From assembly GCF_000015025.1 (NCBI RefSeq), contig NC_008578.1, positions 1,710,001 to 1,742,000 of the forward strand: a stretch of DNA of 32,000 bases, read 5' to 3'. The translations under genes and the position numbers were made by a program. Under the pieces are notes generated by a model. The model was given only the letters and a program-made list of their open reading frames with translations, searched no databases and was not told where the DNA came from. The stretch comes from Acidothermus cellulolyticus 11B (GTDB lineage: Bacteria > Actinomycetota > Actinomycetes > Acidothermales > Acidothermaceae). The first letter of the stretch is position 1. Every line of letters starts with the position of its first letter. Shown one piece after another: positions 8,575 to 18,717 of the stretch.

Positions 8575-9750
8575 CTACTGGACGGTGACGATCGGCGCGC
8601 CGACCGCCTGGTCGTCGCCGAAAGCCCCGCTGGCTTGCATCTCTTCGGCAAGCCGCATCGCCTCTTCCAGCAAGGTCTCGACGATCTGCGACTCCGGGAC
8701 GGTCTTGATGACCTCACCGCGGACGAAAATCTGGCCCTTGCCGTTTCCGGACGCGACACCGAGATCCGCCTCACGCGCTTCACCAGGGCCGTTCACCACG
8801 CACCCCATCACCGCAACGCGCAGCGGGAACGGAAATCCTTGCAACCCCGCCTGTACTTCCTCAGCCAGCTTGTACACGTCAACCTGGGCGCGGCCGCAGG
8901 ACGGGCAGGAGACGATGTCGAGCTTGCGTGGACGCAGCCCGAGGGATTCGAGAATCCCGATGCCGACTTTGACTTCCTCCACCGGCGGCGCCGAGAGCGA
9001 GACGCGAATGGTGTCACCAATGCCTTCGGAGAGCAGGATCCCGAAGGCGACGGCGGACTTGATGGTGCCCTGCAGGAGGGGACCAGCCTCGGTGACGCCG
9101 AGGTGCAGCGGATAGTCGGTCTGGGCCGCCAACAGCCGGTATGCCTGCACCATCACCATCGGGTCGTGGTGCTTCACGGAAATCTTGATGTCGTGGAAGT
9201 CGTGCTCCTCAAAGAGACTTGCTTCCCAGAGCGCCGACTCCACGAGGGCTTCGGCGGTCGGCTTTCCGTATTTCTGCAGAATCCGCGGATCGAGCGAGCC
9301 CGCGTTGACGCCGATGCGGATCGGCGTCCCGTGGTCCTTGGCCGCTTGCGCAATTTCTTTGACCTTGTCGTCGAATTTCTTGATGTTCCCGGGATTGACC
9401 CGGACCCCGGCGCAACCGGCCTCGATCGCGGCGAACACGTACTTCGGCTGGAAGTGAATGTCGGCGATGACCGGAATCGGGGATTTCTTCGCGATGATCG
9501 GCAGCGCGTCGGCGTCGTCCTGACTGGGACAGGCGACCCGGACGATGTCGCACCCCGCCGCGGTGAGCTCGGCGATCTGCTGCAGGGTGGCATTGACGTC
9601 GGCGGTCAGTGTCGTGGTCATCGACTGCACGGAGATCGGCGCCCCGCCTCCGACCAGTACGCCGCCCACATTGATCTGACGGGATTTCCGGCGCGGCGCC
9701 AGCGGACTCTTCGCCGGCACCTCAGGTACGCCGAGATTGATGGTCGTCAC
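8575..9750 (-). CDS. ispG: 4-hydroxy-3-methylbut-2-enyl diphosphate synthase (MEP pathway)
   Basis: 391 aa. TIM-barrel region plus SCPSCGR...[10 protein letters not shown] Fe-S cysteines. Conserved dxr-rip1-ispG synteny. Confidence 0.95.
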
Positions 9751-9790: not shown

Positions 9791-11032
9791 TCACTGGAAC
9801 GGGTTCGCCACCGGGTTGACGAGATCCGCGTACAGCAGGATCAGCGACATACCCACGATCAAGGCTAACGCGGTGTATGTGATCGGCATGAGCTTGGTCA
9901 GGTCCACCGGCCCGCCGGCGGGTCGCCCGCGCAGACGGCGGATCGCGTCGCGGGCCTTCTCGTAGCCGAGGATCGCCACGTGACCGCCGTCCAGCGGCAG
10001 GAGCGGCAGCAGGTTGAAGATGCCGACAAAGATGTTCACCGACGCGACCACCGTGAGGAGGACGGCAATGCCGTTTCCCGCCCCCTCGGCGGCGAAGGCT
10101 TCGCCGGTGAGTTGAGCGACGCCGACCACGCTGGTGACCTGGCCTCCTCCGGAGTTGATGCTCCGCTGGGCGTTCGGATTCGTGAGCAGGACGGCCAGCT
10201 GATGCGGCACCGTCCCAAGGGCACGGAACGAATCGACCACCGCAGTGCCGAACATCCGGCCGGCGGAGGTCAGCGCGCCGACCGGTCCCTGGCGGGTGAA
10301 GTCGTTGACGGGCACGAACCCGATGTGCGGCAAGCCGTCACTGCCGATGACCGGCTGAAAGGTGAGCGTGAGGATACGGTCGCCGCGCTTGACCGTGTAG
10401 GTGATGGGCCCGTGGGTCGATCGGGTCAGTGCGACGAGGCCGTCGGCGCCGCCGGTGACCTGGTGTGCGGACGCCGGGTTGGACGGGTTCCGGAGGACGG
10501 CCGGGGTGTCTTTGACGCTGCGGCCGTTGACCGCGAGGATGACGTCACCGACCTGCAGTCTCCCCGCCGCAGGTGCCGGGGCGGCGCCCGGCGGGCATTG
10601 CCCGGCGTCGTTGGGAATTGCGCAGGAGTACACCTTTGCGACCTGGGCGTACCCGGTGGGTTTCGTCGGCCACGCAAGGGCGAAGACGAAGAGCAGCACG
10701 AGTCCGATCACGAAATGCACCGCCGAACCGGCGACCAGCACCACCAGGCGCTGCGGCCCGGGTTGGTTGATGAAGGCCCACGGCCGGTCCGCCGGGTCGA
10801 TGTGTTCCAGCGGCGTCATGCCGACGATTTTGACGAAACCCCCGGCCGGAATTGCTTTGATTCCGTATTCGGTCTCGCCCTTCTTGCGTGACCAGAGGGT
10901 CGGCCCGAAACCGACGAAGAATTGGGTGGCTTTCATGCCGAACAGCCGAGCGAACGCGAAGTGCCCCGCCTCGTGCAGCAGGACGGAAATCAGCAAAGCG
11001 ACGACGAAGGCAATGATGCCGAGCACCATCAT
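9791..11032 (-). CDS. rip1: M50 site-2 zinc metalloprotease with PDZ domain (Rip1/RseP-like)
   Basis: HEAGHF (HExxH) and [12 protein letters not shown] motifs. True start is the ATGATG at 11032, which overlaps the dxr stop (ATGA). The 102-aa upstream extension in the ORF track is Arg-rich and lies inside dxr. Confidence 0.9.
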
Positions 11033-12294
11033 CGGCAGCCCCCGATGAGTTCGTCGGCGAGCCGCCGCGCTTCGCGTTCGGCGTCCAACACGTCGGAAAC
11101 GGAGCGGACCGGGACCGGCGGCGCGGCGAGGAATTTCTCCGTCACCGCTGCGACGACGTCCATGATGCCGAGAAAGTCGAGGCGTCCAGCCAGAAAAGCC
11201 GCGACCGCTTCTTCGTTTGCCGCGTTGAACGCGGCCGGCGCGACGCCGCCCGCGGCGCCGACCTGCCGGGCGATGTCGATGGCCGGGAAGGTTTCGCCGT
11301 CCACTGGTTCGAACGTCCATGCCGTTGCCTGCCGCCAATCGCAGCTTGGGATGACCGCAGGGAGCCGGTACGGCCAGGCGAGCGCCAACGCGATCGGCAG
11401 CCGCATATTCGGCGGTGAGCAGTGCGCCACGGTCGAGCCGTCAATGAATTCCACCATGGAATGGACGACGGACTGGGGATGAATAACGACGTCAATGGCG
11501 TCCAAGGAAATGTCGAACAGCAAATGCGCCTCGATCACCTCGAGCGCCTTGTTCACCAGCGTCGCGGAATTGATGGTGATGACCGGCCCCATCCGCCAGG
11601 TGGGATGGGCGAGTGCCTGTTCGGCGGTGACTCCGACAAGATCGGCTCGACGGCGGCCGCGGAACGGCCCCCCGCTCGCAGTGAGAATGAGCCGTCGTAC
11701 TTCGTCGGCACGTCCCGCGCGCAAACACTGGGCGAGGGCGGAGTGCTCGGAATCGACCGGAACGATCTGTCCAGGTTCGGCAATCGCTTTCACCAACGGT
11801 CCGCCGGCGATCAGCGATTCCTTGTTGGCAAGCGCGAGGGTCCGCCCGGCGCGCAGCGCCGCCACCGTCGGAGCAAGGCCGATTGAGCCGGTGATCCCGT
11901 TGAGGACGACGCCGTCGCGTGGTTCGGCGACGGGCAGCGGCCATGCCGCCACTTCGGCGGCAGCCTCCGGCCCGCTGACGATCTTTGGGTGTGGTGCCGC
12001 GCAACCACGCTCGGCCGCTGCGGCGGCCAGGGCATGCTCGACCTCCGCGGGTGTCGCCCCGGTGACTCCGATCACCTCGACGCCGAATTCCACCGCCTGC
12101 CGGGTCAGAAGATCAAGCCGGCTGCCGCTCGCGGCGAGCCCCACCACCCGAAACAGGTCGGGATGGTTGCGGACGACGTCCAGCGCCTGGGTTCCGATCG
12201 ATCCAGTGGAGCCGAGGATCACCAGTGGGCGGACCGGGAGCCTGCCGGCGCGCATCGGCGATGACGGCTGAGGGGCCAGCGGGGACGAGCTCAC
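11029..12294 (-). CDS. dxr: 1-deoxy-D-xylulose 5-phosphate reductoisomerase
   Basis: [19 protein letters not shown]-binding motif and a full-length DXR sequence. GTG at 12294 has GGGGAG 9 nt upstream. ATG at 12255 is an alternative start. Confidence 0.93.
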
Positions 12295-12420
12295 CTGGTC
12301 ATTCTCCCCGATGACCCGGCACCTCGTCTTCGATCACCCCGGTGGGCCGATCCTCGGTGTGGTGGCGACAGTGGGCCCGGTGGGGTCGACAGGGGCGGTC
12401 GGGAGGGCGCGGCAGGCGCG

Positions 12421-12513
12421 GCGGTCGGCCGGCGCCGCGGTCGGCCGGCGGCGATGGCCGGCGCGGCAGGACGCGCGGCTGCGGCGATGGCCGGCGCGGC
12501 AGGACGCGCGGCT
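12421..12513. repeat. Compound tandem repeat upstream of dxr: 16 bp x2 (gcggtcggccggcgcc), then 33 bp x2 (gcggcgatggccggcgcggcaggacgcgcggct)
   Basis: Read directly. The 33-mers occupy 12448-12480 and 12481-12513 and are identical. Confidence 0.9.
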
Positions 12514-12559
12514 GCGGTGCCGGTCAGTCCGGCAACGCGCGCCGCGTCGGTCGCATCGG

Positions 12560-12745
12560 CCGCTACGACGGCGGACACGACCCGTCACGCGGTGCATCAC
12601 CGGAAAAGCGGTCTGCGCTGCGACCACGTCCAGCCCAATGAACAAGATGGTGTTGGACACCGGCAGCTCGGCATCCTCGGAATTGCCCGCCGCACGGCGG
12701 GGATACTGTTCTCAGAACGGTGGACGTCGTCCCTTTTCCTTTTAT
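12560..12745 (-). pseudogene. Decayed third copy of the B membrane module (B3)
   Basis: The start region matches B1, but ATG is ATA (gataaaagg vs gatgaaagg) and 6 nt are missing. After a frame change it reads AAGNSEDAELPVSNTILFIGLDVVAAQTAFPVMHRVTG, which matches AAGNSESAELLVTDTIVLNGVNVVTTQTAFPAMYSITG inside AB2. No continuous frame exists, and the 3' part is replaced by GC-rich repeats. Confidence 0.5.
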
Positions 12746-12820
12746 CGGCAGCAGCTTCCGCTGTAGCTGTAGGAACGTTAATCCTGCGCGACGGGTTAGG
12801 CTCTGACGATTGTCCGGGCA
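12712..12820 (-). repeat. Conserved inter-module element, copy in cassette 3
   Basis: 101/109 aligned nt identical to 14532-14646, with one 6-nt indel. Includes a 34-nt perfect run tgtaggaacgttaatcctgcgcgacgggttaggc. Confidence 0.9.
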
Positions 12821-12825
12821 CGCGG

Positions 12826-13334
12826 TCAGGTCCCTGTCGGCCCGCCCTCCGAAACATCGGCACGCCGGGTTGTATCAGCATGGCGGAGCCGCCAGCGCCG
12901 GCGCAGTCGCAGCCAGGTGCGCACAGCGGCAATTTCCACGGTTACCCAAATAGTCTGGTCCAGGGGCCACAATGTCGCGACGAGAACGACGAGGACCAGA
13001 CCGCCGGAAATCACTCCGACGATCAGCCGTACAGCCTCTGCCGCCAGAGGTAATCCGATGATCCACTTTCGATAGGGCGCGATGTCCGCCCATGCGTCGC
13101 CGCGGAAAAGTTCGCTTGAGACCAAACGACAAGGGCAACTGCGTAACCGGTTACGGCGACAAGCCCGACGGCAAGCGGTGAGCGGAGCGGGTCGCGATAG
13201 AGCGTCACGTTGATCACAAAGACCACGGTATAAAAGAGCCACAAGAGTACGAGAACACGCTTCACCACTTTGGGTGGATCACATTGGCGAATCACAGCCA
13301 GCCCTCCAGCCTTAAGCACGCCCACCGCGCGCAC
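12826..13334 (-). pseudogene. Frameshifted third copy of the A membrane module (A3)
   Basis: N-terminal half lies in the frame of ORF 13023..13334 (...VLVLLWLFYTVVFVINVTLYRDPLRSPLAVGLVAVTGYAVALVV). C-terminal half lies in the frame of ORF 12826..13242 (SSELFRGDAWADIAPYRKWIIGLPLAAEAVRLIVGV...RLRRRWRLRHAD). Joined, they align along the whole of A1. The junction is at about 13115-13135 around an AAA run (13124-13126). One extra base there restores GYAVALVVLVSSELFRGDAW. Confidence 0.7.
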
Positions 13335-14226
13335 GGCGGTCGATCACCGTGAAAACGGCGAGCGTCAGAACCATTGCCGCTGTAAGGACAGCTCCTTGCC
13401 ACGCCACGCTCCTGATAACCGAGAACGTGTCGAAATCAACGAGCGCATTGCCGAAGACAGCGAGAACAGCCAGCCTTCGATACGTCGGAGACCATTCGCG
13501 AAAACGACGGCGTGTCGCAGCGAGAATGTAGATGTTACCGAGTACGACGGGGGTGATCACAGCATGACCCGTGATACTGTACATCGCCGGAAAGGCGGTC
13601 TGCGTTGTGACGACGTTCACTCCATTGAGCACGATGGTGTCGGTTACCAGCAGCTCGGCGCTCTCGGAGTTGCCCGCCGCAGGGAGCCGGCTCTCCGCGT
13701 CTTCCTCGGTATCTGGTTCTCGCGGCGTCCGACGGGAGTCCCGCCACCGGCGAATTTCCGAGATCGCACCATACCCCGCGAGAACGCTGAGCGTCACGAC
13801 TGTAGGAACGAAAACCGTATAGAGCAGGAGACTCCGGTTTGTTTCGCGAGCATGGATGTACATTCCGACACCGAGGACCTTTACGAAAACAAGCGTGGCG
13901 ATGACGTAACGAGAACGCCTGACCGTGCGCCAGAATCGCCCCCAGAGCCGCCAGTAGAATTTCGCCTCTACGTACGACGTCGCCGTGCTAACTACGGAAA
14001 ACAACACAAGCACACCCTCGCGGGAGAGCGAGAAGCGATAATCGCGCACGGGCGTCACCGCGGCGTAGCCGATCCAGCTAAGCGCCCATAACAGGCACAA
14101 ACCAGCGGCAATCCCCGTCGAGCCAGTCGGGCGATGGTGAGGGCGCCACCTCGGTAGGTACACCTTGTCACGCAGGTTTGCTGAGGCGGCACTCCGTCCG
14201 CATCCACTCCGTTGACGCCAGCCCAC
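13312..14226 (-). CDS. Fused A+B multi-pass membrane protein (AB2), unknown family
   Basis: 304-aa ORF. The N-terminal half has the A-module pattern (4 predicted TM segments, FY...R..RR loop, C-terminal RRWRDSRR). An acidic linker PREPDTEEDAES follows. The C-terminal half resembles B1/B3. The start could be GTG 14163 instead of 14226. Confidence 0.65.
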   Translation of the reverse strand: MGWRQRSGCGRSAASANLRDKVYLPRWRPHHRPTGSTGIAAGLCLLWALSWIGYAAVTPVRDYRFSLSREGVLVLFSVVSTATSYVEAKFYWRLWGRFWRTVRRSRYVIATLVFVKVLGVGMYIHARETNRSLLLYTVFVPTVVTLSVLAGYGAISEIRRWRDSRRTPREPDTEEDAESRLPAAGNSESAELLVTDTIVLNGVNVVTTQTAFPAMYSITGHAVITPVVLGNIYILAATRRRFREWSPTYRRLAVLAVFGNALVDFDTFSVIRSVAWQGAVLTAAMVLTLAVFTVIDRRARGGRA

Positions 14227-14262
14227 GATTGAGCTCCGCGAGGTGACCGAACTGCAAGCGAT

Positions 14263-14571
14263 TTATTCGTGGATTCTTTTCCGCCGCTCCCTGATCGTGT
14301 GTACGAGGAGAGTCACGGTATATCCGGCAAGGATCGAGCCAACAATCCCAGGGAGGTAGTCACGACTAGCCACCGCACTCGACGCGCTGACCATGGCAAA
14401 TAGGCCACCGATGAGCAGTGCGACCCGGTCACGCAGCGCCGCTGCGACGACTCGATACCGATCAGGTTGGAGCCGATACCTCAGCCAGAGGTTGTGCACT
14501 ATCAGAATCGTTATCAGGATAGCGTTAAATATCAGAACGGTGGACGTCGTCAAGTGCACTTCTCCTTTCAT
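14263..14571 (-). CDS. Small 3-TM membrane protein, B module (B1), unknown family
   Basis: 102-aa ORF with a hydrophobic pattern and a basic C-terminus RERRKRIHE. AAGGAG lies 8 nt before an in-frame TTG at 14553, which is an alternative start. No comparable plus-strand ORF. Confidence 0.6.
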   Translation of the reverse strand: MKGEVHLTTSTVLIFNAILITILIVHNLWLRYRLQPDRYRVVAAALRDRVALLIGGLFAMVSASSAVASRDYLPGIVGSILAGYTVTLLVHTIRERRKRIHE

Positions 14572-14646
14572 CGGCAGTAGCTTCCGCTGTAGATGTAGGA
14601 ACGTTAATCCTGCGCGACGGGTTAGGCGCTGACGATCGTCTGGGCA
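14532..14646 (-). repeat. Conserved inter-module element, copy in cassette 1 (spans the A1-B1 spacer and the first B1 codons)
   Basis: See 12712-12820. The flanking coding DNA is too diverged to align at nucleotide level. Confidence 0.9.
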
Positions 14647-14656
14647 TAGTTACTTA

Positions 14657-15124
14657 TTATTCCGCCGCACGCATGCCTTTGTAGCGACCATGCGCATCAA
14701 GCTCATGCCTATGTTTGCGCCAGCGAAGCCACGCCCGAGCAAGACGCATAACGAGGATCATCCAGAATACTAGTTCGAATGGCGCGAGCGCTACATAAAT
14801 TGCCGCGTAAGTGAGACTATCAAAGTCGTTAACAGCTACACCTATGACCACTCGTGCAATCTCAAGCGCCACTAGAGTGCGAATGATGCGTCTTCGATAT
14901 GGTTCGATAATAGCCCAGCTTGGGCCGCGATAAAAATCGTTAGAAGCGAGAATTGAAAAAAGAATCGTGTACCCAATCGAGAAACCGAGAATACCCAGAA
15001 TCGGGACAGAGCGATGCGCTCGCAAGTGGCCCGCTAGGACAAACACCCCCGCTATAAAGCTCAACAAGATAGTCACGTATCCGACAATTTTTTGCCACCG
15101 ATGCAATGACAGGTTGGGGGTCAT
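14657..15124 (-). CDS. Small 4-TM membrane protein, A module (A1), unknown family
   Basis: 155-aa ORF with a strong RBS (tagGGAGGcgacATG) and four hydrophobic segments. About 48% GC by hand count. The plus strand is closed by stops here, so the coding strand is unambiguous. Confidence 0.75.
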   Translation of the reverse strand: MTPNLSLHRWQKIVGYVTILLSFIAGVFVLAGHLRAHRSVPILGILGFSIGYTILFSILASNDFYRGPSWAIIEPYRRRIIRTLVALEIARVVIGVAVNDFDSLTYAAIYVALAPFELVFWMILVMRLARAWLRWRKHRHELDAHGRYKGMRAAE

Positions 15125-15180
15125 GTCGCCTCCCTACATATACATGGTAACCGGAACAATGCCTTGAAGCACCTGCACGC

Positions 15181-16080
15181 TCACGTGCAGTAACGGCCGC
15201 TATAGACCTCCGGTGTTATGAACGGTGGTGCTGGCGGGCCGCTGAACAAACGCGGCGCTGACAAGCCAAACTTAATTGCTAGACACTTTCCTAGCCACTG
15301 AGCAGCGGCGGCATAAACGGTCACCGTCGAGGACAAATCCCCTATCGCTTCGGTAGGCGGAAGTATTGCGAGAAGATATTGATAATAACCATAGCTCAGG
15401 CCGTACGCGGCGATGAATGCGGTTTCTTCTTTGTTGAAGTAGATGGTGCCGGTGATGATGCCCCAGGTGATTTTGGGGTCGGCGGTGATGGGGTAGGTGG
15501 CGGTGGTTGGTGGGGTGATGGTCTGGGTGAGGCTGGTGGGGGTGATGGTGTAGGTGGTGGGGATGGGGTTACCGGCCGCGTCGTGTGCCCACGGTGCGGC
15601 GATGAAGGCGACGGGCTGGTGGTGGGAGTCAAGGACGAGTGCACCGCCGTCGGCGGTTGGTGCAAGCGTCTCCCCAGGCGTGGTGATCGTGAAGGTCACG
15701 CTGGTCGGAGCTGTGGAGTCTTCCAGGATGATCAGGTCTTGTTCGCCGTGGGGAATGCGCTGCCGGGCCAGGTCCAGATGCGGCAGCGCGTCGGGGGTGA
15801 CAGTCAGCGTGGTGTCCACGGTGACCGGAACAGCGTTACTGCCCTGCACGACCAGCGACGGTGCACTCCGCGGTGGTGTATCAACATCAGCCGGATTGAT
15901 CGAACGGTGCAACGGTCCGAGCTCATCGGCCACCCGGTGCGCGTGCGCTACACGCCCAGGGTCCGAGCCGGGTTGCGCCGCAAACGCGGTCCCCTCAAAC
16001 CCAACACACACACAGCGGTCACGGTGCCCACCAGGGCGAGTCTGCCACGCATCGACATCCCTTCCATCTCCAACACGCAT
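15181..16080 (-). CDS. Secreted-type Thr/Pro-rich protein of unknown family; the signal peptide is encoded in a different frame upstream (16015-16067)
   Basis: 299-aa ORF from ATG 16080 with no signal peptide of its own. ORF 15948..16130 in another frame encodes M(S)MRGRLALVGTVTAVCVLGL, a signal-peptide-like N-terminus preceded by GGAAGGG. The two frames meet at a (GT)5.5 tract. The mature part contains AAPWAHDAAGNPIPTTYTITPTSLTQTITPPTTATYPITADP followed by a lower-GC C-terminal region of about 95 aa. Confidence 0.65.
   Translation of the reverse strand: MRVGDGRDVDAWQTRPGGHRDRCVCVGFEGTAFAAQPGSDPGRVAHAHRVADELGPLHRSINPADVDTPPRSAPSLVVQGSNAVPVTVDTTLTVTPDALPHLDLARQRIPHGEQDLIILEDSTAPTSVTFTITTPGETLAPTADGGALVLDSHHQPVAFIAAPWAHDAAGNPIPTTYTITPTSLTQTITPPTTATYPITADPKITWGIITGTIYFNKEETAFIAAYGLSYGYYQYLLAILPPTEAIGDLSSTVTVYAAAAQWLGKCLAIKFGLSAPRLFSGPPAPPFITPEVYSGRYCT
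16004..16014. repeat. Dinucleotide repeat acacacacaca, i.e. (GT)5.5 on the coding strand, at the signal-peptide / mature-protein frame junction
   Basis: Read directly. Deleting one GT unit or adding 1 nt joins the two frames. Confidence 0.9.
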
Positions 16081-16097
16081 GGGAACGTTCCCATGCG
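16076..16097. promoter_or_regulatory. 22-bp perfect palindrome CGCATGGGAACGTTCCCATGCG in the 5' leader of the secreted-protein gene
   Basis: Self-complementary over all 22 nt (checked base by base). Lies about 10-30 nt downstream of the predicted transcription start. Each arm carries an ATG: 16094 in the signal-peptide frame and 16080 in the mature frame. Confidence 0.8.
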
Positions 16098-16113
16098 ATC
16101 ACAAGCGATCCCG

Positions 16114-16143
16114 ATAATAGAAAACCGCACACGCCAGTGTCAA
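16114..16143 (-). promoter_or_regulatory. Near-consensus housekeeping-sigma promoter: TTGACA, 18-nt spacer, TATTAT
   Basis: Minus strand: TTGACA (16143-16138), spacer ctggcgtgtgcggttttc, TATTAT (16119-16114). It is an AT-rich patch in GC-rich surroundings, upstream of the secreted-protein gene. Confidence 0.6.
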
Positions 16144-16237
16144 GACAGCCAGCAGGCGACCGATCCGTCCCCAGGACGAGGTCAAGCGCGTCATCGAGAA
16201 AGTGTCAAGACGGCCGACGGGTGACCGATCCGCCCCC
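16136..16237. repeat. Two 37-nt imperfect direct repeats (16136-16172 and 16201-16237, 31/37 identical), each containing a TTGACA on the minus strand
   Basis: agtgtcaagacagccagcaggcgaccgatccgtcccc vs agtgtcaagacggccgacgggtgaccgatccgccccc. Period 65 bp. Confidence 0.85.
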
Positions 16238-16250
16238 CGTCAGCGCACCA

Positions 16251-16270
16251 GCCTGCCGCCATCGGCAGGC
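16251..16270 (-). terminator. Candidate intrinsic terminator hairpin after the MMPL gene (8-bp GC stem, 4-nt loop, no U-tract)
   Basis: gcctgccg-ccat-cggcaggc, about 110 nt downstream of the MMPL stop. Confidence 0.35.
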
Positions 16271-16380
16271 AATTGGCCTCCACCATGCGCAAAAGTGAGC
16301 GTCAGATTCCCCTTGCGGCCGACGAGACGGTCAATACGCCGTTGCGCATCGACTCGGAAGCGACTGCGGATATCACGCCG

Positions 16381-18681
16381 TCAACGGAGCTGGTGATTCT
16401 CCGCTATGCGGGACTGCTCCTCCCCCGACGTTCTGTCAGACAGCGCGGCGAGCGGCTCGCCTCCCATTGGCGGTTCACCGGCCGCCAGTACGGCTATTGG
16501 TGCTTCGCGAAATGCGTGGCGTTGCCACCACCGCTCCAGCGGAGCAGGAGCCCACCAGTTGACCCGGCCGAGAAGGCGCATGACAGCAGGAACAAGCAGT
16601 GCGCGCACCACGGTGGCGTCAACGGCGATGGCCAGCGCCATTCCAACACCGAGCAATTTGAGGGTGGTGATCCGAGAGGTCGCGAATAGGCCGATGACGA
16701 CGATGAGGAGCAGGGCCGCCGACGTGATGATGCGGCCGCTGCGCTGGAGCCCGACCGCCACCGCGGCGGCATTCCGCTCACCCGGATTGACGTTGTCCGC
16801 AGTCACGTCCCACTCCTCGCGAATGCGGCTGAGCAGGAAGACCTCGTAGTCCATGGATAATCCGAAGACCACCGCGAGAAGCAGGATCGGGTCGGTGGCG
16901 TCAAGGTAACCGAGCGGGCTGAAGTCCAACAGGCGCGCAAGATGCCCGTCTTGGAAAATCCAGGTAATCGCCCCGAAGGACGCCGCAATGGAAATCGTAT
17001 TCATGACGATGGCTTTCAACGGCAGAACAACCGACCCGAAGGCGAGGAAGAGCAGGAAAGCCATCGCCACGGCGATCACGGTGAGCATCCATGGCAACAC
17101 GTGGCCGATGCTGTGCAGCTGATCGACGAGGAATGCTGTCAAGCCGCCGACGAGCACCCGGCTCCCCGCAGGCGGCTGGACCGCGCGAACCTCGGCGAGG
17201 GTGTGCCGAGCGGCGGACGAGATCGGATCCCCGTGGTAATCGACCTCGATCAGAGCGTTGTGCCCGCGGACCGCAGCGACATGCGCACCCGTCGTCCCCG
17301 GAACCTGGGCCAGCCTGTCGGCGTAGGCAAGCAAACTTTGCTGGTCCGGGAAGTTCTCGACGACGACGTCCATGGGTGTCGTTTCGTTGCCGGGAAAATC
17401 CCGCGCCAATGCGTCGCTGGTCACGCGGCCAGGCGCGTTGGCGGGCAGGACCTTCGCGGTGTACCCGCCGAATGTGACGTTCCGGAACGGCAACGCCATC
17501 ACGGCGAGCACGACGACAATGGGAATTGCGTAGATCAACGGGCGGCGCATCACAGAACGGGCGAGCCGGTACCAGAAACCGCCCGACGACGGCACCGGCG
17601 TCGCGGACGCACTCTGCCGCGCAGCAAGCCGCCGCGCTCTGTGGTGCGGACCGAACCACGGCACGTGGAGCGCATCCACCCGGCGGCCCAGGACGGCAAG
17701 AATAGCGGGGAGAATAGTCAACGCGGCAAGAACATCCAACAGCACGACCGCGACTCCGCCGTACCCCATGGACCGGAGAAAATCCTCCGGAAATAAGACC
17801 AGTGAGGCGGTCGACACGGCAACGGTCACGCCGGAGAACGCAACGGTACGTCCTGCGGTCGCCAATGTCCGGCGCAGCGCCGTCTCGACGTCCGCGGTCC
17901 GGCTCATTTCTTCGCGGAACCGACTCACAACGAAGAGCGCGTAATCGATCGCGAGGCCAAGGCCCAGCATCGTCACGAGATTTTGCGCAAAAATCGAGAC
18001 GTGCGTGACAATCGTCAGGAATCGCAGGATGGCGAATGCCCCGACGATTCCACAGATTCCGACGATGACCGGTAAGGCTGCGGAAACGACGCTCCCGAAG
18101 ATGATGAGCAGGAGGATCAGCGTCGTCGGCAGAGACAAAGCCTCCGCGCGCTTGAGATCCCGGCTGACCTGCCCACTTATTTCTTTGTTCAGCGGCTGCG
18201 CTCCAGCATAACCGACGGAAATGCCACGGGTCTGCAGCTCGGCCAACCGCTGCTTGACCACCTGGAGCGCGCTCGCTTTCTGCGCATCGGTCGTGCCGGC
18301 CAATTCCAATGTCACGTAAGTGGAACGACCATCGGTGGAGATGAGCCGACGCTGGCCGGTGTTCCAATAACTGAGGTAGGACGGAACAACACTCTTCGGC
18401 AGATCGTGAAGCGCTCCCACGATGGCGGCGGCATTCGCCGGGCTCGTGATCGGTTCACGGCTCGTGAAGAGCACAGTCGCGTCGGACGACGGCAGATGCA
18501 GGACGTCGGTAATGGCATTCGCTGCCTGCACGGACTCGCTATGGGGGTCGTAATAGCCCCCACTTGACAAACGCTTGGTGACGTCGCTGCCCCAGAGCGC
18601 GGCCAACGCCAGGAGCACGATACCGATAATGATCACCAGACGGCGGCGGTGATACATCGCCCTGCCGAGGCGGTCGAACAT
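16381..18681 (-). CDS. MMPL family RND-type membrane transporter
   Basis: ORF 16381..18702. I place the start at ATG 18681 because MFDRLGRAMYHRRRLVIIIGIVLLA matches the usual MmpL N-terminus (MF..WGR.VY..R..VIG) and a promoter sits immediately upstream. Twelve-TM architecture with two periplasmic loops. GC is about 60-62%, below the backbone. Confidence 0.9.
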   Translation of the reverse strand: MFDRLGRAMYHRRRLVIIIGIVLLALAALWGSDVTKRLSSGGYYDPHSESVQAANAITDVLHLPSSDATVLFTSREPITSPANAAAIVGALHDLPKSVVPSYLSYWNTGQRRLISTDGRSTYVTLELAGTTDAQKASALQVVKQRLAELQTRGISVGYAGAQPLNKEISGQVSRDLKRAEALSLPTTLILLLIIFGSVVSAALPVIVGICGIVGAFAILRFLTIVTHVSIFAQNLVTMLGLGLAIDYALFVVSRFREEMSRTADVETALRRTLATAGRTVAFSGVTVAVSTASLVLFPEDFLRSMGYGGVAVVLLDVLAALTILPAILAVLGRRVDALHVPWFGPHHRARRLAARQSASATPVPSSGGFWYRLARSVMRRPLIYAIPIVVVLAVMALPFRNVTFGGYTAKVLPANAPGRVTSDALARDFPGNETTPMDVVVENFPDQQSLLAYADRLAQVPGTTGAHVAAVRGHNALIEVDYHGDPISSAARHTLAEVRAVQPPAGSRVLVGGLTAFLVDQLHSIGHVLPWMLTVIAVAMAFLLFLAFGSVVLPLKAIVMNTISIAASFGAITWIFQDGHLARLLDFSPLGYLDATDPILLLAVVFGLSMDYEVFLLSRIREEWDVTADNVNPGERNAAAVAVGLQRSGRIITSAALLLIVVIGLFATSRITTLKLLGVGMALAIAVDATVVRALLVPAVMRLLGRVNWWAPAPLERWWQRHAFREAPIAVLAAGEPPMGGEPLAALSDRTSGEEQSRIAENHQLR

Positions 18682-18688
18682 GGCCGAT

Positions 18689-18717
18689 AAGTTAGTGGTC
18701 ACTCACTAGTTTGTCAA
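18689..18717 (-). promoter_or_regulatory. Promoter TTGACA, 17-nt spacer, TAACTT, ending 7 nt before the MMPL ATG (leaderless mRNA predicted). The spacer contains the inverted repeat TAGTG-N6-CACTA.
   Basis: Minus strand: TTGACA (18717-18712), aactagtgagtgaccac, TAACTT (18694-18689), atcggcc, ATG (18681). Confidence 0.55.

What the first reader, a model, noticed from the sequence alone, without database searches (positions are those of the whole stretch)
12712..14646. A 109-115 nt inter-module element is about 93% identical between cassettes whose coding regions have diverged to about 40% protein identity
Copies at 12712-12820 and 14532-14646 differ by 8 substitutions and one 6-nt indel. They contain a 34-nt perfect run (tgtaggaacgttaatcctgcgcgacgggttaggc). 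Each copy spans the A stop, the spacer, and the B ribosome-binding/start region. The flanking A and B coding DNA cannot be aligned at nucleotide level, and GC differs by about 15 points. The fused cassette 2 lacks the element. Its ends carry near-palindromes (gacgtcgtc on one side; gacgatcgtc on the other in copy 1, gacgattgtc in copy 3).

Such conservation implies one of three things:
- strong selection on a cis-acting RNA or DNA signal, such as a translational control element for B or a protein-binding site;
- a recombination substrate that shuffles modules;
- very recent gene conversion limited to this segment.
Basis: seen in the sequence. Interest (0 to 1): 0.65.

Follow-up and report, generated by a model that had tools for sequence, protein, structure and literature searches.

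The report
Leftover gene stub between swapped genes
The repeated 110-base "element" is real, but it is a recombination scar (the last 11 codons of a displaced gene plus the ribosome-binding site and start of the next gene) that drifts neutrally in a strain-variable gene island, so it is ordinary in itself.

Summary
The repeat is real. Copies lie at 12712-12820 and 14532-14646, with 8 substitutions, a 6-nt indel and a 34-nt exact core. No other copy turned up in any collection I could search.

It is not a selected signal or a mobile element. Read on the coding (minus) strand, each copy has four parts:
- about 43 nt of uncertain origin;
- an 11-codon stub with a stop codon (RSYIYSGSYCR*), which is the C-terminal motif of the secreted-protein family of the neighbouring 299-aa gene;
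- that gene's old Shine-Dalgarno spacer;
- the TTG start and first 7 codons of gene B3.

Four related haplotypes from metagenomes show a 4.1-kb island between mmpL and dxr. In it, [299 C-terminus + small membrane gene A] modules are swapped between strains. In one haplotype a 299 gene abuts a B3 homologue directly, which looks like the ancestral junction.

Between strains the element diverges by 6-12%. That equals or exceeds synonymous divergence in the flanking genes (2.5-13%), so it drifts neutrally. Shared variants are phylogenetically incompatible, which points to recombination among copies.

Copy 3 supplies B3's ribosome-binding site and start. Copy 1 is dead. The A flanks look unrelated because A3 belongs to a swapped module. 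The sequences downstream of the two copies are not homologous genes.

The parts
14532..14646 (-). Element copy 3 (el3). It lies between A3 and B3. This is the working copy.
12712..12820 (-). Element copy 1 (el1). It lies between the A1 pseudogene and the D1 relic. This copy is decayed: the ribosome-binding site is mutated and the start codon is lost through a 6-7 nt deletion.
14568..14603 (-). Stub in el3: CGT..TGA encodes RSYIYSGSYCR plus a stop codon. This is the displaced 3' end of a 299-family gene.
   Evidence: It is the best match in the whole window (21.2 bits) to a scoring matrix built from the C-termini of 104 distant family members. None of 20000 shuffles reached this score. It is 25/31 nt identical to the L098 299a 3' end plus stop plus Shine-Dalgarno sequence, z 6-7. 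tblastn agrees.
12742..12777 (-). Stub in el1: RSYSYSGSCCR plus a TAA stop.
   Evidence: 15.2 bits; third best hit in the window, after el3 and the real 299 gene end
14562..14568 (-). Shine-Dalgarno sequence AAAGGAG for B3. It overlaps the stub's stop codon and lies 8 nt upstream of the TTG start.
14532..14553 (-). TTG start and first 7 codons of B3 (M-TTSTVL). This is the 3' end of the repeat.
   Evidence: The position is GTG in L010, where the upstream ATG is out of frame. B3 aligns from residue 1 with the L098 homologue.
14598..14627 (-). 30-nt run GCCTAACCCGTCGCGCAGGATTAACGTTCC, invariant in all four distinct copies. The same run is at 12772-12801 in el1. Its last 6 nt are the first two codons of the stub.
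   Evidence: The permutation test gives P 0.006 with gap columns counted singly and 0.06 with the indel counted as one event.
14604..14646 (-). 5' part of el3, of uncertain origin. It holds the GACGATCGTC palindrome, which can pair with B3 codons 1-3.
   Evidence: There is no significant similarity to the 299 3' regions upstream of the stub (P 0.13-0.85).
14647..15402 (-). Swapped module: the variable C-terminal 74 codons of the 299 gene, a spacer, and A3. GC is 51%.
   Evidence: L010 and L011 are 97-99% identical to the window on both sides of this segment but cannot be aligned to it at DNA level. They carry an A1-like gene there instead.
14657..15124 (-). A3, a 155-aa protein with four predicted membrane helices.
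   Evidence: It has no relative among 5.8 billion proteins apart from itself.
14263..14553 (-). B3, a 96-aa membrane protein.
13312..14226 (-). AB2, a 304-aa membrane protein. It is an ancestral long gene, 36% identical over its full length to the L098 homologue.
12826..13334 (-). A1, a pseudogene in this genome because of a 1-nt deletion near 13106. It is intact in L096, L010 and L095.
12576..12697 (-). D1, a relic of an AB2-type gene. It is 79% identical at DNA level to 13563-13684, then frameshifted and truncated.
15181..16080 (-). The 299-aa gene, a member of a large uncharacterised secreted-protein family. Its C-terminal motif is the source type of the stub.

Best explanation
The element is a recombination scar, not a designed inter-module signal.

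Origin (inferred from the comparisons below). Originally a 299-family secreted-protein gene ran straight into B3, as it still does in haplotype L098. A module made of a new 299 C-terminal region plus a small membrane gene (A) was then recombined into the 3' end of that gene. All that remained of the old C-terminus was its last 11 codons and stop codon. These are still followed by the old Shine-Dalgarno spacer and by B3.

What the 109-115 nt repeat is. It is the stretch shared by two descendants of this junction.
- Upstream, similarity ends 5-10 nt after the A stop codon. There the hypervariable [299 C-terminus + A] module begins. A3 and A1 are different alleles of that module, exchanged between strains by homologous recombination using the conserved flanks.
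- Downstream, similarity ends after B3 codon 7. In the dxr-proximal unit a deletion joined that point to the middle of an AB2-type gene, which is the D1 relic.

What it does now. In copy 3 its only demonstrable role is to provide B3's ribosome-binding site and start codon. A long-range helix could pair the 5' arm with B3 codons 1-3 and occlude the start. That would couple B3 translation to A. This helix is inferred only. Copy 1 is a dead relic.

Why the copies stay similar. The sequence drifts at the neutral rate, and its copies exchange short tracts by recombination or conversion. The copies therefore stay about 91-93% alike, while the neighbouring A genes, swapped as part of the module, look unrelated.
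For: Shown by tool results:
- A scoring matrix built from the last 9 residues plus stop of 104 distant 299-family members scores only three places in the 32-kb window above 10 bits: el3 (21.2), the real 299 gene end (16.3) and el1 (15.2). None of 20000 shuffles of el3 reached the observed score. tblastn gives the same alignment ending at the family C-terminus.
- el3 is 25/31 identical to the 3' end, stop and Shine-Dalgarno sequence of L098 299a, z 6-7.
- In L098 the 299a stop codon is followed after 12 nt by a B3 homologue (50% identity, aligned from residue 1) and then by an AB2 homologue (36%, full length). There is no A gene and no element.
- Four C-terminal alleles of the 299 gene occur in near-identical backgrounds. 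Each is followed by a different gene: A3, A1, A4 or B3'.
- The window and L010 are 97-99% identical on both sides of 14647-15402 but cannot be aligned at DNA level inside it.
- Element divergence is 6-12%, against flanking-gene dS of 0.025-0.127. Coding flanks are more conserved than the element.
- Informative sites support all three possible groupings of the four copies.
- The element is absent from 185,579 species genomes and from the metagenome collection, except at this same locus.
- The island is absent in the nearest relatives found, where mmpL abuts dxr.
- In copy 1 the ribosome-binding site and start are destroyed, and A1 is frameshifted.
Against: - A 30-nt run is invariant in all four distinct copies (P 0.006 to 0.06 depending on how the indel is counted). 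Only its last 6 nt belong to the stub. Pure drift does not predict this.
- The first 43 nt of the element have no demonstrated origin.
- D1 and its AB2 counterpart are only 79% identical while el1 and el3 are 91-93% identical. The two units therefore did not diverge uniformly. Conversion, or assembly of the array from different alleles, has to be invoked.
- The haplotypes come from short metagenome contigs that end inside repeats, so part of the array order is inferred. This applies above all to whether L010 has a second element.
- The complete source genome could not be searched for further copies.
Confidence: 0.7

Rival explanations
1. The element, or at least its 30-nt core with the flanking arms, is a selected cis-acting RNA or DNA signal. 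One version is a structure that hides B3's ribosome-binding site and start until ribosomes finish translating A (translational coupling). Another is an operator for a regulator.
For: - The 30-nt run is invariant in four copies.
- The RNAalifold consensus pairs the 5' arm GAC..UCGUC with B3 codons 1-3, CCU with the AGG of the Shine-Dalgarno sequence, and CGUCG.CGCAG with CUGCCGAUG. One A-to-G change keeps a U-A pair as U-G.
- In the A1 context the 5' arm starts 11 nt after the A stop codon, within reach of a terminating ribosome.
- AACGTTCC occurs in the window only in the two cores and in a 16-bp palindrome at the start of the 299 gene.
Against: - Fold energies are not better than shuffles (z -1.07 and +0.28 as RNA on the coding strand; -0.36 to +0.44 as DNA on either strand).
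- There are no compensatory changes, and the T-to-G change in L010 breaks a G-U pair in the el3 fold. RNAalifold found no pair kept through changes on both sides.
- The element as a whole evolves at or above the synonymous rate.
- The core is equally invariant in the dead copy 1, which suggests recency rather than function.
- The palindrome is not conserved in L095.
- There is no Rfam match and no promoter-like or terminator-like site in the element.
- In el3 the 5' arm lies 17 nt after the A3 stop codon, outside a terminating ribosome's footprint.
Confidence: 0.12
2. The element is a dedicated recombination site, an integrase-independent analogue of an integron attC site, at which A-type cassettes are exchanged.
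For: - The right edge of the swapped module coincides with the element's 5' edge.
- The L010 copy looks chimeric. Its 5' informative sites match el1 and its 3' sites match el3.
- GCCTAAC matches the attC inverse-core consensus RYYYAAC (seen directly in the sequence; the consensus is from my own knowledge).
Against: - There is no complementary GTTRRRY at the other end.
- There is no single-stranded DNA hairpin better than shuffles.
- No integrase or recombinase gene lies within about 10 kb on either side in the gene tables of L001 and L095.
- In L095, A4 and A1 are joined without any element.
- Ordinary homologous recombination in conserved flanks explains the same breakpoints.
Confidence: 0.08
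3. The element is a small mobile repeat, similar to a miniature inverted-repeat element or a REP or MIRU sequence, that inserted independently downstream of two A genes.
For: - Its size is about 110 nt.
- It has imperfect 8-10 bp inverted repeats at its ends: GACGATCGTCA and TGACGACGTC.
- Its edges are sharp.
Against: - There are only two copies in the window, and none elsewhere in the genome and metagenome collections.
- There are no target-site duplications.
- The 3' third is native B3 sequence, and the middle is a 299-family gene end.
- A1 and the element are contiguous in all haplotypes.
Confidence: 0.03

Closest known systems
Displaced effector 3' ends and orphan immunity genes in polymorphic effector-immunity arrays. 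Examples are the Vibrio cholerae T6SS clusters (Kirchberger et al. 2017, PMC5361080) and Rhs/CDI orphan modules (PMC3967940).
   Same: - The main gene has a constant 5' part and a hypervariable 3' part.
- The variable part travels together with the small gene downstream of it.
- Incoming modules displace older ones and leave fragments of old 3' ends and older partner genes behind.
- Exchange between strains goes through homologous recombination in the conserved flanks, plus occasional illegitimate joins.
   Different: - No toxin activity, immunity function or dedicated secretion system is known or visible here.
- The main gene belongs to an uncharacterised family. Its homologues carry Sec-type signal peptides, and its predicted fold is a beta-sandwich with C-terminal helices and no PDB match.
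- The leftover is only 11 codons long.
- The organism is an actinomycete near the Acidothermaceae.
Recombination between tandem paralogues of immunity genes (T7SS esaG and tsaI strings in Firmicutes, PMC9484751)
   Same: Tandem, partly decayed paralogous small genes next to a polymorphic secreted protein. Repeated segments act as substrates for homologous recombination and give mosaic arrays.
   Different: This comparison rests on the title and abstract only; I did not read the paper in full. In the present locus the repeated segment is a non-coding scar, not the coding sequence of the paralogues.
Intercistronic repeats such as mycobacterial MIRUs (from my own knowledge: Supply et al. 1997)
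   Same: An element of about 50-110 nt inside an operon, between a stop codon and the next start, reaching into the next gene's translation start.
   Different: MIRUs are dispersed around the genome and often tandemly repeated. This sequence occurs only at this locus and is not in tandem.
Integron attC sites (from my own knowledge)
   Same: It lies between cassette-like genes, has a similar length, and contains a GCCTAAC motif.
   Different: It has no paired core sites, no hairpin and no integrase nearby.

Membership tests
Displacement scar in a polymorphic module array (effector-immunity type architecture) | The main gene has a conserved 5' part and a hypervariable 3' part among closely related strains. 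| tested here: met
   There are four C-terminal alleles, 42-53% identical for the three compared and a fourth read from P0006. The upstream parts are 84-100% identical at DNA level, and the flanking core genes 97-98.5%.
Displacement scar in a polymorphic module array (effector-immunity type architecture) | The variable 3' part co-varies with the gene immediately downstream. | tested here: met
   The pairs are window C-terminus with A3, L010 with A1, L095 with A4, and L098 299a with B3'.
Displacement scar in a polymorphic module array (effector-immunity type architecture) | A remnant of a displaced 3' end of the main gene lies downstream of the current module. | tested here: met
   The 11-codon stub with its stop codon is present in both element copies.
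Displacement scar in a polymorphic module array (effector-immunity type architecture) | The variable part is a toxin and the downstream gene protects against it. | not testable with these tools
   There are no Pfam, NCBIfam, PADLOC or PDB sequence matches. The confident model (pLDDT 86.8) has no PDB fold match.
Displacement scar in a polymorphic module array (effector-immunity type architecture) | Association with a dedicated secretion system (T5, T6 or T7). | tested here: not met
   No such genes appear in the tables covering about 10 kb on either side. Homologues carry ordinary Sec-type signal peptides.
Structured cis-regulatory RNA | Match to a described RNA family. | tested here: not met
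   No Rfam match at the gathering threshold over the whole window, and none overlapping the element at E up to 10.
Structured cis-regulatory RNA | Folding energy better than shuffled sequence. | tested here: not met
   z ranges from -1.23 to +0.28 as RNA.
Structured cis-regulatory RNA | Base pairs maintained by compensatory changes. | tested here: inconclusive
   None of the 24 predicted pairs shows a double change. Only four distinct sequences are available, and most pairs never vary.
Structured cis-regulatory RNA | Conservation above the neutral rate. | tested here: not met
   Element divergence is 0.06-0.12, against dS of 0.025-0.127 in neighbouring genes. The exception is a 30-nt invariant run, with P between 0.006 and 0.06.
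Dispersed small mobile repeat (MITE, REP or MIRU type) | Many copies at unrelated sites. | tested here: not met
   There are two copies in the window. There are no hits in genome contigs, and only the same locus in metagenome contigs and in the fetched loci. The full source genome could not be searched.
Dispersed small mobile repeat (MITE, REP or MIRU type) | Terminal inverted repeats with target-site duplications. | tested here: not met
   Short imperfect inverted repeats are present. The bases flanking the two copies share no duplication.
Integron attC site | Paired RYYYAAC and GTTRRRY core sites that form an imperfect hairpin in single-stranded DNA. | tested here: not met
   Only GCCTAAC is present. 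DNA folds score z -0.36 to +0.44.
Integron attC site | An integron integrase gene nearby. | tested here: not met
   None appears in the gene tables of L001 and L095.

The most novel reading that the evidence does not exclude
The 4.1-kb island may be a previously undescribed polymorphic system of actinomycetes. In it, a secreted beta-sandwich protein with a hypervariable helical C-terminus would be matched to variable small multi-pass membrane partners, in the manner of toxin and immunity or ligand and receptor. The system would diversify by module displacement, and the element would be its displacement scar. A further possibility is that the invariant 30-nt core with its arms has been co-opted as a signal coupling B3 translation to A.
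Probability: 0.2. Interest if true: 0.6.

Novelty: new member of a known kind. Interest (0 to 1): 0.3.

Why it matters
The element itself explains away an apparent paradox. A non-coding stretch looked far better conserved than the genes around it. In fact it drifts neutrally, while the A genes upstream of it belong to a hypervariable swapped module and the sequences downstream of it are not homologous genes. A short repeat between diverged genes can therefore be a scar and not a signal.

The wider locus may repay study. The 299-aa protein belongs to a family with about 2,600 cluster representatives. The family has no Pfam model and no PDB fold match. Here it shows four C-terminal alleles in near-identical strains, each paired with a different membrane protein. 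That is the genetic signature of polymorphic toxin-immunity or recognition systems.

Tried and rejected
- Rfam search at gathering and at permissive thresholds: nothing overlapping the element.
- RNA and DNA folding of both strands of several copies: no better than shuffles.
- Consensus folding: no covariation.
- Promoter and terminator scan: nothing in the element. The only strong promoter-like site lies upstream of the 299 gene.
- Operator idea. The core shares AACGTTCC with a 16-bp palindrome at 16079-16094. I dropped this because the palindrome is not conserved in L095.
- A small ORF inside the element. The frame reading PNPSRRINVPT stays open, but every substitution in it is non-synonymous and its start and stop are not conserved.
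- Dispersed-repeat idea: pattern scans of genome contigs and metagenome contigs, and an nhmmer profile search of all fetched loci, found no extra copies.
- Island DNA against plasmids and phages: only weak hits of the 299 gene to Streptomyces plasmid genes annotated as hypothetical proteins, with an uninformative context.
- Idea that AB2 is an A+B fusion that lost the element. I rejected it because the L098 homologue is equally long and collinear.
- Idea that the 43 nt upstream of the stub are further decayed 299 C-terminal coding sequence. There are collinear 9-11 nt matches (GTCAGCGCC, GGATTAACG), but the alignment is not significant.
- Searches for relatives of A3 and AB2 returned only near-identical sequences.
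- Pfam, NCBIfam, PADLOC and PDB sequence searches of the island proteins found nothing.
Full report
**1. Observation**

The window holds two direct copies of a 109-115 nt sequence, at 12712-12820 and 14532-14646. The repeat finder reports them as an 88-nt block at 92% and a 20-nt block at 100%, offset by 6 nt. The 34-nt core occurs exactly twice, and no shuffle produced a match. The repeat is real and is not due to chance.

**2. Gene map on the minus strand**

The order is:
- mmpL (16381-18702);
- a promoter-like site, TTGACA-18-TATTAT (16143-16114);
- a 299-aa gene (15181-16080);
- A3 (14657-15124);
- el3;
- B3 (96 aa, starting at TTG 14553);
- AB2 (13312-14226);
- A1 (13334-12826);
- el1;
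- D1 (12576-12697);
- a GC-rich stretch containing a 33-nt tandem duplication;
- dxr (11029-12294).

- A1 and A3 are homologous but only 33% identical.
- A1 has a 1-nt deletion in this genome. It is intact in three relatives.
- What follows el1 is not a B3 homologue. It is a fragment 79% identical at DNA level to the middle of AB2, then frameshifted and truncated.
- The A stop codons lie 10 and 5 nt outside the repeat.
- el1 has lost the ribosome-binding site and the start codon.

**3. Distribution**

- A 22-mer from the core is absent from one genome for each of 185,579 species.
- A 20-mer from the core finds only one contig in the metagenome collection, and that contig is the same locus in a related strain.
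- An nhmmer profile of the four distinct copies finds nothing else in any fetched locus.
- The nearest dxr sequences found are 69-71% identical. They come from Acidothermaceae and other uncultured actinomycete genomes assembled from metagenomes. In the two nearest full-length ones (L015, L016), mmpL abuts dxr.

The whole stretch 12295-16380 is therefore a lineage-specific island. Its proteins match no Pfam, NCBIfam, PADLOC or PDB entry.

**4. Related haplotypes**

Exact-protein look-ups gave four other versions of the locus.
- L096 is 99% identical to the window and has an intact A1.
- L010 and L011 come from two samples. Their order is 299' (different C-terminus), an A1-like gene, the element, B3, AB2, and then the first 108 nt of another A1.
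- L095 is a 16-kb contig collinear with the window on both flanks. Its order is a 299 gene with a third C-terminal allele, then A4, A1, the element, D1 and dxr. It has no B3 or AB2 and only one element copy.
- L098 has the order mmpL, 299a (a fourth C-terminal allele), 12 nt, a B3 homologue (50% identical, aligned from residue 1), an AB2 homologue (36% identical, full length), further genes, and a second 299 gene. It has no A gene and no element.

Three conclusions follow.
- The window and L010 are 97-99% identical on both sides of 14647-15402 but cannot be aligned at DNA level inside it. That segment, with 51% GC, holds the C-terminal 74 codons of the 299 gene plus A3. A3 is therefore part of a swapped [299 C-terminus + A] module, and the module's right edge is the element's 5' edge.
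- Each of the four C-terminal alleles is followed by a different gene.
- B3-AB2 is a conserved gene pair, and AB2 is an ancestral long gene. It is not a fusion that lost the element.

**5. Anatomy of the element**

The profile search gave one weak extra hit, at the 3' end of L098 299a. Following this up showed that el3 positions 14603-14568 read RSYIYSGSYCR followed by a stop codon.
- I built a position-specific scoring matrix from the last nine residues of 104 distant members of the 299 family and required a following stop codon. Only three places in the whole window, on either strand, score above 10 bits: el3 (21.2), the true end of the 299 gene (16.3) and el1 (15.2). None of 20000 shuffles of el3 reached the observed score.
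- tblastn with the family C-termini gives the same alignment, ending exactly at the family's last residue.
- At DNA level el3 is 25/31 identical to the end of L098 299a together with its stop codon and Shine-Dalgarno sequence, z 6-7.

Read 5' to 3' on the coding strand, the element consists of:
- 43 nt of unproven origin (14646-14604);
- an 11-codon stub of a displaced 299-family gene with its stop codon (14603-14568);
- the old 299-to-B3 spacer with the Shine-Dalgarno sequence AAAGGAG (14568-14562);
- the TTG start and first seven codons of B3 (14553-14532).

The upstream 43 nt alone show no significant similarity to 299 C-terminal coding sequence.

**6. Rate of change**

In every orthologous comparison the element is less conserved than the coding DNA beside it.

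| Comparison | Upstream flank | Element | Downstream flank |
|---|---|---|---|
| window vs L010 | A1 97.2% | 92.6% (el1), 93.9% (el3) | B3 98.3%, AB2 97.5% |
| window vs L095 | A1 91.7% | 88.2% (el1) | D1 93.3% |

Synonymous divergence in neighbouring genes is as follows.

| Gene | Comparison | dS |
|---|---|---|
| dxr | window vs L095 | 0.051 |
| rip1 | window vs L095 | 0.066 |
| mmpL | window vs L095 | 0.127 |
| B3 | window vs L010 | 0.025 |
| AB2 | window vs L010 | 0.047 |

Element divergence is 0.118 against L095 and 0.061 against L010. The element therefore evolves at or above the neutral rate. The within-genome difference between el1 and el3 (7-9%) lies in the same range as the differences between strains.

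Among the four distinct copies there are six parsimony-informative features. Two support each of the three possible groupings, and they are interleaved along the 115 nt. A single tree cannot explain this. It indicates short recombination or conversion tracts among copies.

One observation does not fit pure drift. A 30-nt run (14627-14598) is invariant in all four copies. The permutation P value is 0.006 if gap columns are counted singly and 0.06 if the indel counts as one event.

**7. Tests for a signal**

- Rfam gives no match.
- Folding energy is no better than shuffles as RNA or as single-stranded DNA, on either strand.
- No promoter-like or terminator-like site lies in the element.
- The consensus fold pairs the 5' arm with B3 codons 1-3 and CCU with the Shine-Dalgarno AGG. 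No pair shows a compensatory change, and the T-to-G change in L010 breaks a G-U pair of the el3 fold.
- A 16-bp palindrome at the start of the 299 gene shares AACGTTCC with the core, but it is not conserved in L095.

**8. Model**

Shown by the analysis:
- the stub and its family identity;
- the direct 299-to-B3 junction in L098;
- the module swap and its edges;
- the neutral rate;
- the decay of copy 1.

Inferred:
- An ancestral 299-B3-AB2 unit received a [C-terminus + A] module in the 3' end of the 299 gene. This left the 11-codon stub.
- Later module swaps between strains used the conserved 299 body on the left, and the element with B3 and AB2 on the right, as homology arms.
- The dxr-proximal unit (A1, el1, D1) is a second, decayed copy or allele of A-element-B3-AB2. 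In it a deletion joined B3 codon 7 to about codon 177 of an AB2-type gene.

The repeat's two sharp edges are therefore the edges of two unrelated rearrangements and not the ends of an element. In copy 3 the sequence provides B3's translation start. Any coupling of B3 translation to A through the long-range helix is speculation.

**9. Comparison with known systems**

The closest described process is the displacement of effector genes by incoming effector-immunity modules. It leaves shifted 3' ends and orphan immunity genes, and it combines with frequent homologous recombination. It has been described for Vibrio cholerae T6SS clusters (PMC5361080), and a search also returned a paper on Rhs orphan toxin modules in Salmonella (PMC3967940).

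The architecture criteria are met here: a constant 5' part with a variable 3' part, co-variation with the downstream gene, and a displaced 3' remnant. The functional criteria are not. No toxin, immunity function or dedicated secretion system is known or visible.

The 299 protein belongs to a family of 2,571 cluster representatives at E up to 0.001. The homologues I examined carry Sec-type signal peptides. The family has no Pfam model. A confident model (pLDDT 86.8) shows a beta-sandwich followed by C-terminal helices and has no significant PDB match. I therefore say the locus works like such an array, and I do not file it as a member of that family.

**10. Caveats**

- The relatives are short metagenome or unitig contigs that break in repeats.
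- The direction of the A3/A1 swap cannot be decided.
- The complete source genome could not be searched.
- Only four distinct copies of the element exist, so the invariant core remains unexplained.

Noticed in passing
window 15948-16080, especially the (TG)5 run at 16005-16014 (minus strand): A short ORF with a good ribosome-binding site encodes a signal-peptide-like sequence (MSMRGRLALVGTVTAVCVLG..., ATG at 16058). It is out of frame with the body of the 299 gene. Removing one TG unit would fuse it in frame and give a signal peptide ending in AFA|AQP, like the signal peptides seen in homologues. The tract is (TG)5 in the window, in L095 and in L098 299a, and (TG)8 in L098 299b. All of these are in the same 'off' phase. 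Possible explanations are phase variation, recoding, or a different true start.
   Followed up: partly
window 12295-16380: The whole 4.1-kb stretch between mmpL and dxr is a lineage-specific island with lower GC (50-62%, against about 63-70% in the flanks). In the nearest relatives found, mmpL abuts dxr. The island's gene content differs among strains whose flanking genes are 97-98.5% identical.
   Followed up: yes
window 15181-15402, with L010 102-337, L095 about 9205-9504 and L098 about 1256-1457: The last 75-100 codons of the 299-family gene exist as at least four alleles (42-53% identity between the three compared). They keep the GKCL.IK and YSG.YC motifs, and each is followed by a different membrane-protein gene. 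In the model this variable part forms three helices and a beta-hairpin. dN/dS for the island genes is high (A1 0.87, B3 0.58, AB2 0.39), against 0.05-0.13 for the flanking core genes.
   Followed up: partly
window 16079-16094: A perfect 16-bp palindrome, ATGGGAACGTTCCCAT, overlaps the annotated ATG of the 299 gene, just downstream of the promoter-like site. It is not conserved in L095.
   Followed up: yes
window 16136-16172 and 16201-16237: A direct repeat (37 nt, 84% identical) upstream of the 299 gene. Both copies carry CTTGACAC, so the -35 region is duplicated.
   Followed up: no
window 12402-12548, including 12448-12513: A 147-nt segment of about 78% GC just upstream of dxr contains a perfect 33-nt tandem duplication. 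It is absent from L095. Both lengths are multiples of three, and the reading frame continuous with D1 has the highest third-position GC, so it may be or have been coding.
   Followed up: partly
window about 13106 (A1): There is a single-base deletion (TTTCTCC to TTTTCC) relative to L096, L010 and L095. It frameshifts A1 in this genome and in the Logan assemblies of the same strain.
   Followed up: yes
L098 1-4883: One related strain carries two 299-family genes in the island (299a and 299b). Between them lie B3' and AB2' homologues, small antisense ORFs and a fragment similar to a ribonucleotide reductase small subunit. The array can therefore be much longer than in the window.
   Followed up: partly
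L001-L009, L012, L013 (Logan contigs): Independent short-read assemblies of the same strain break at 14598, or run exactly from one core copy to the other (14627 to 12772). This is what a 34-nt exact repeat longer than the assembly word size would cause.
   Followed up: yes
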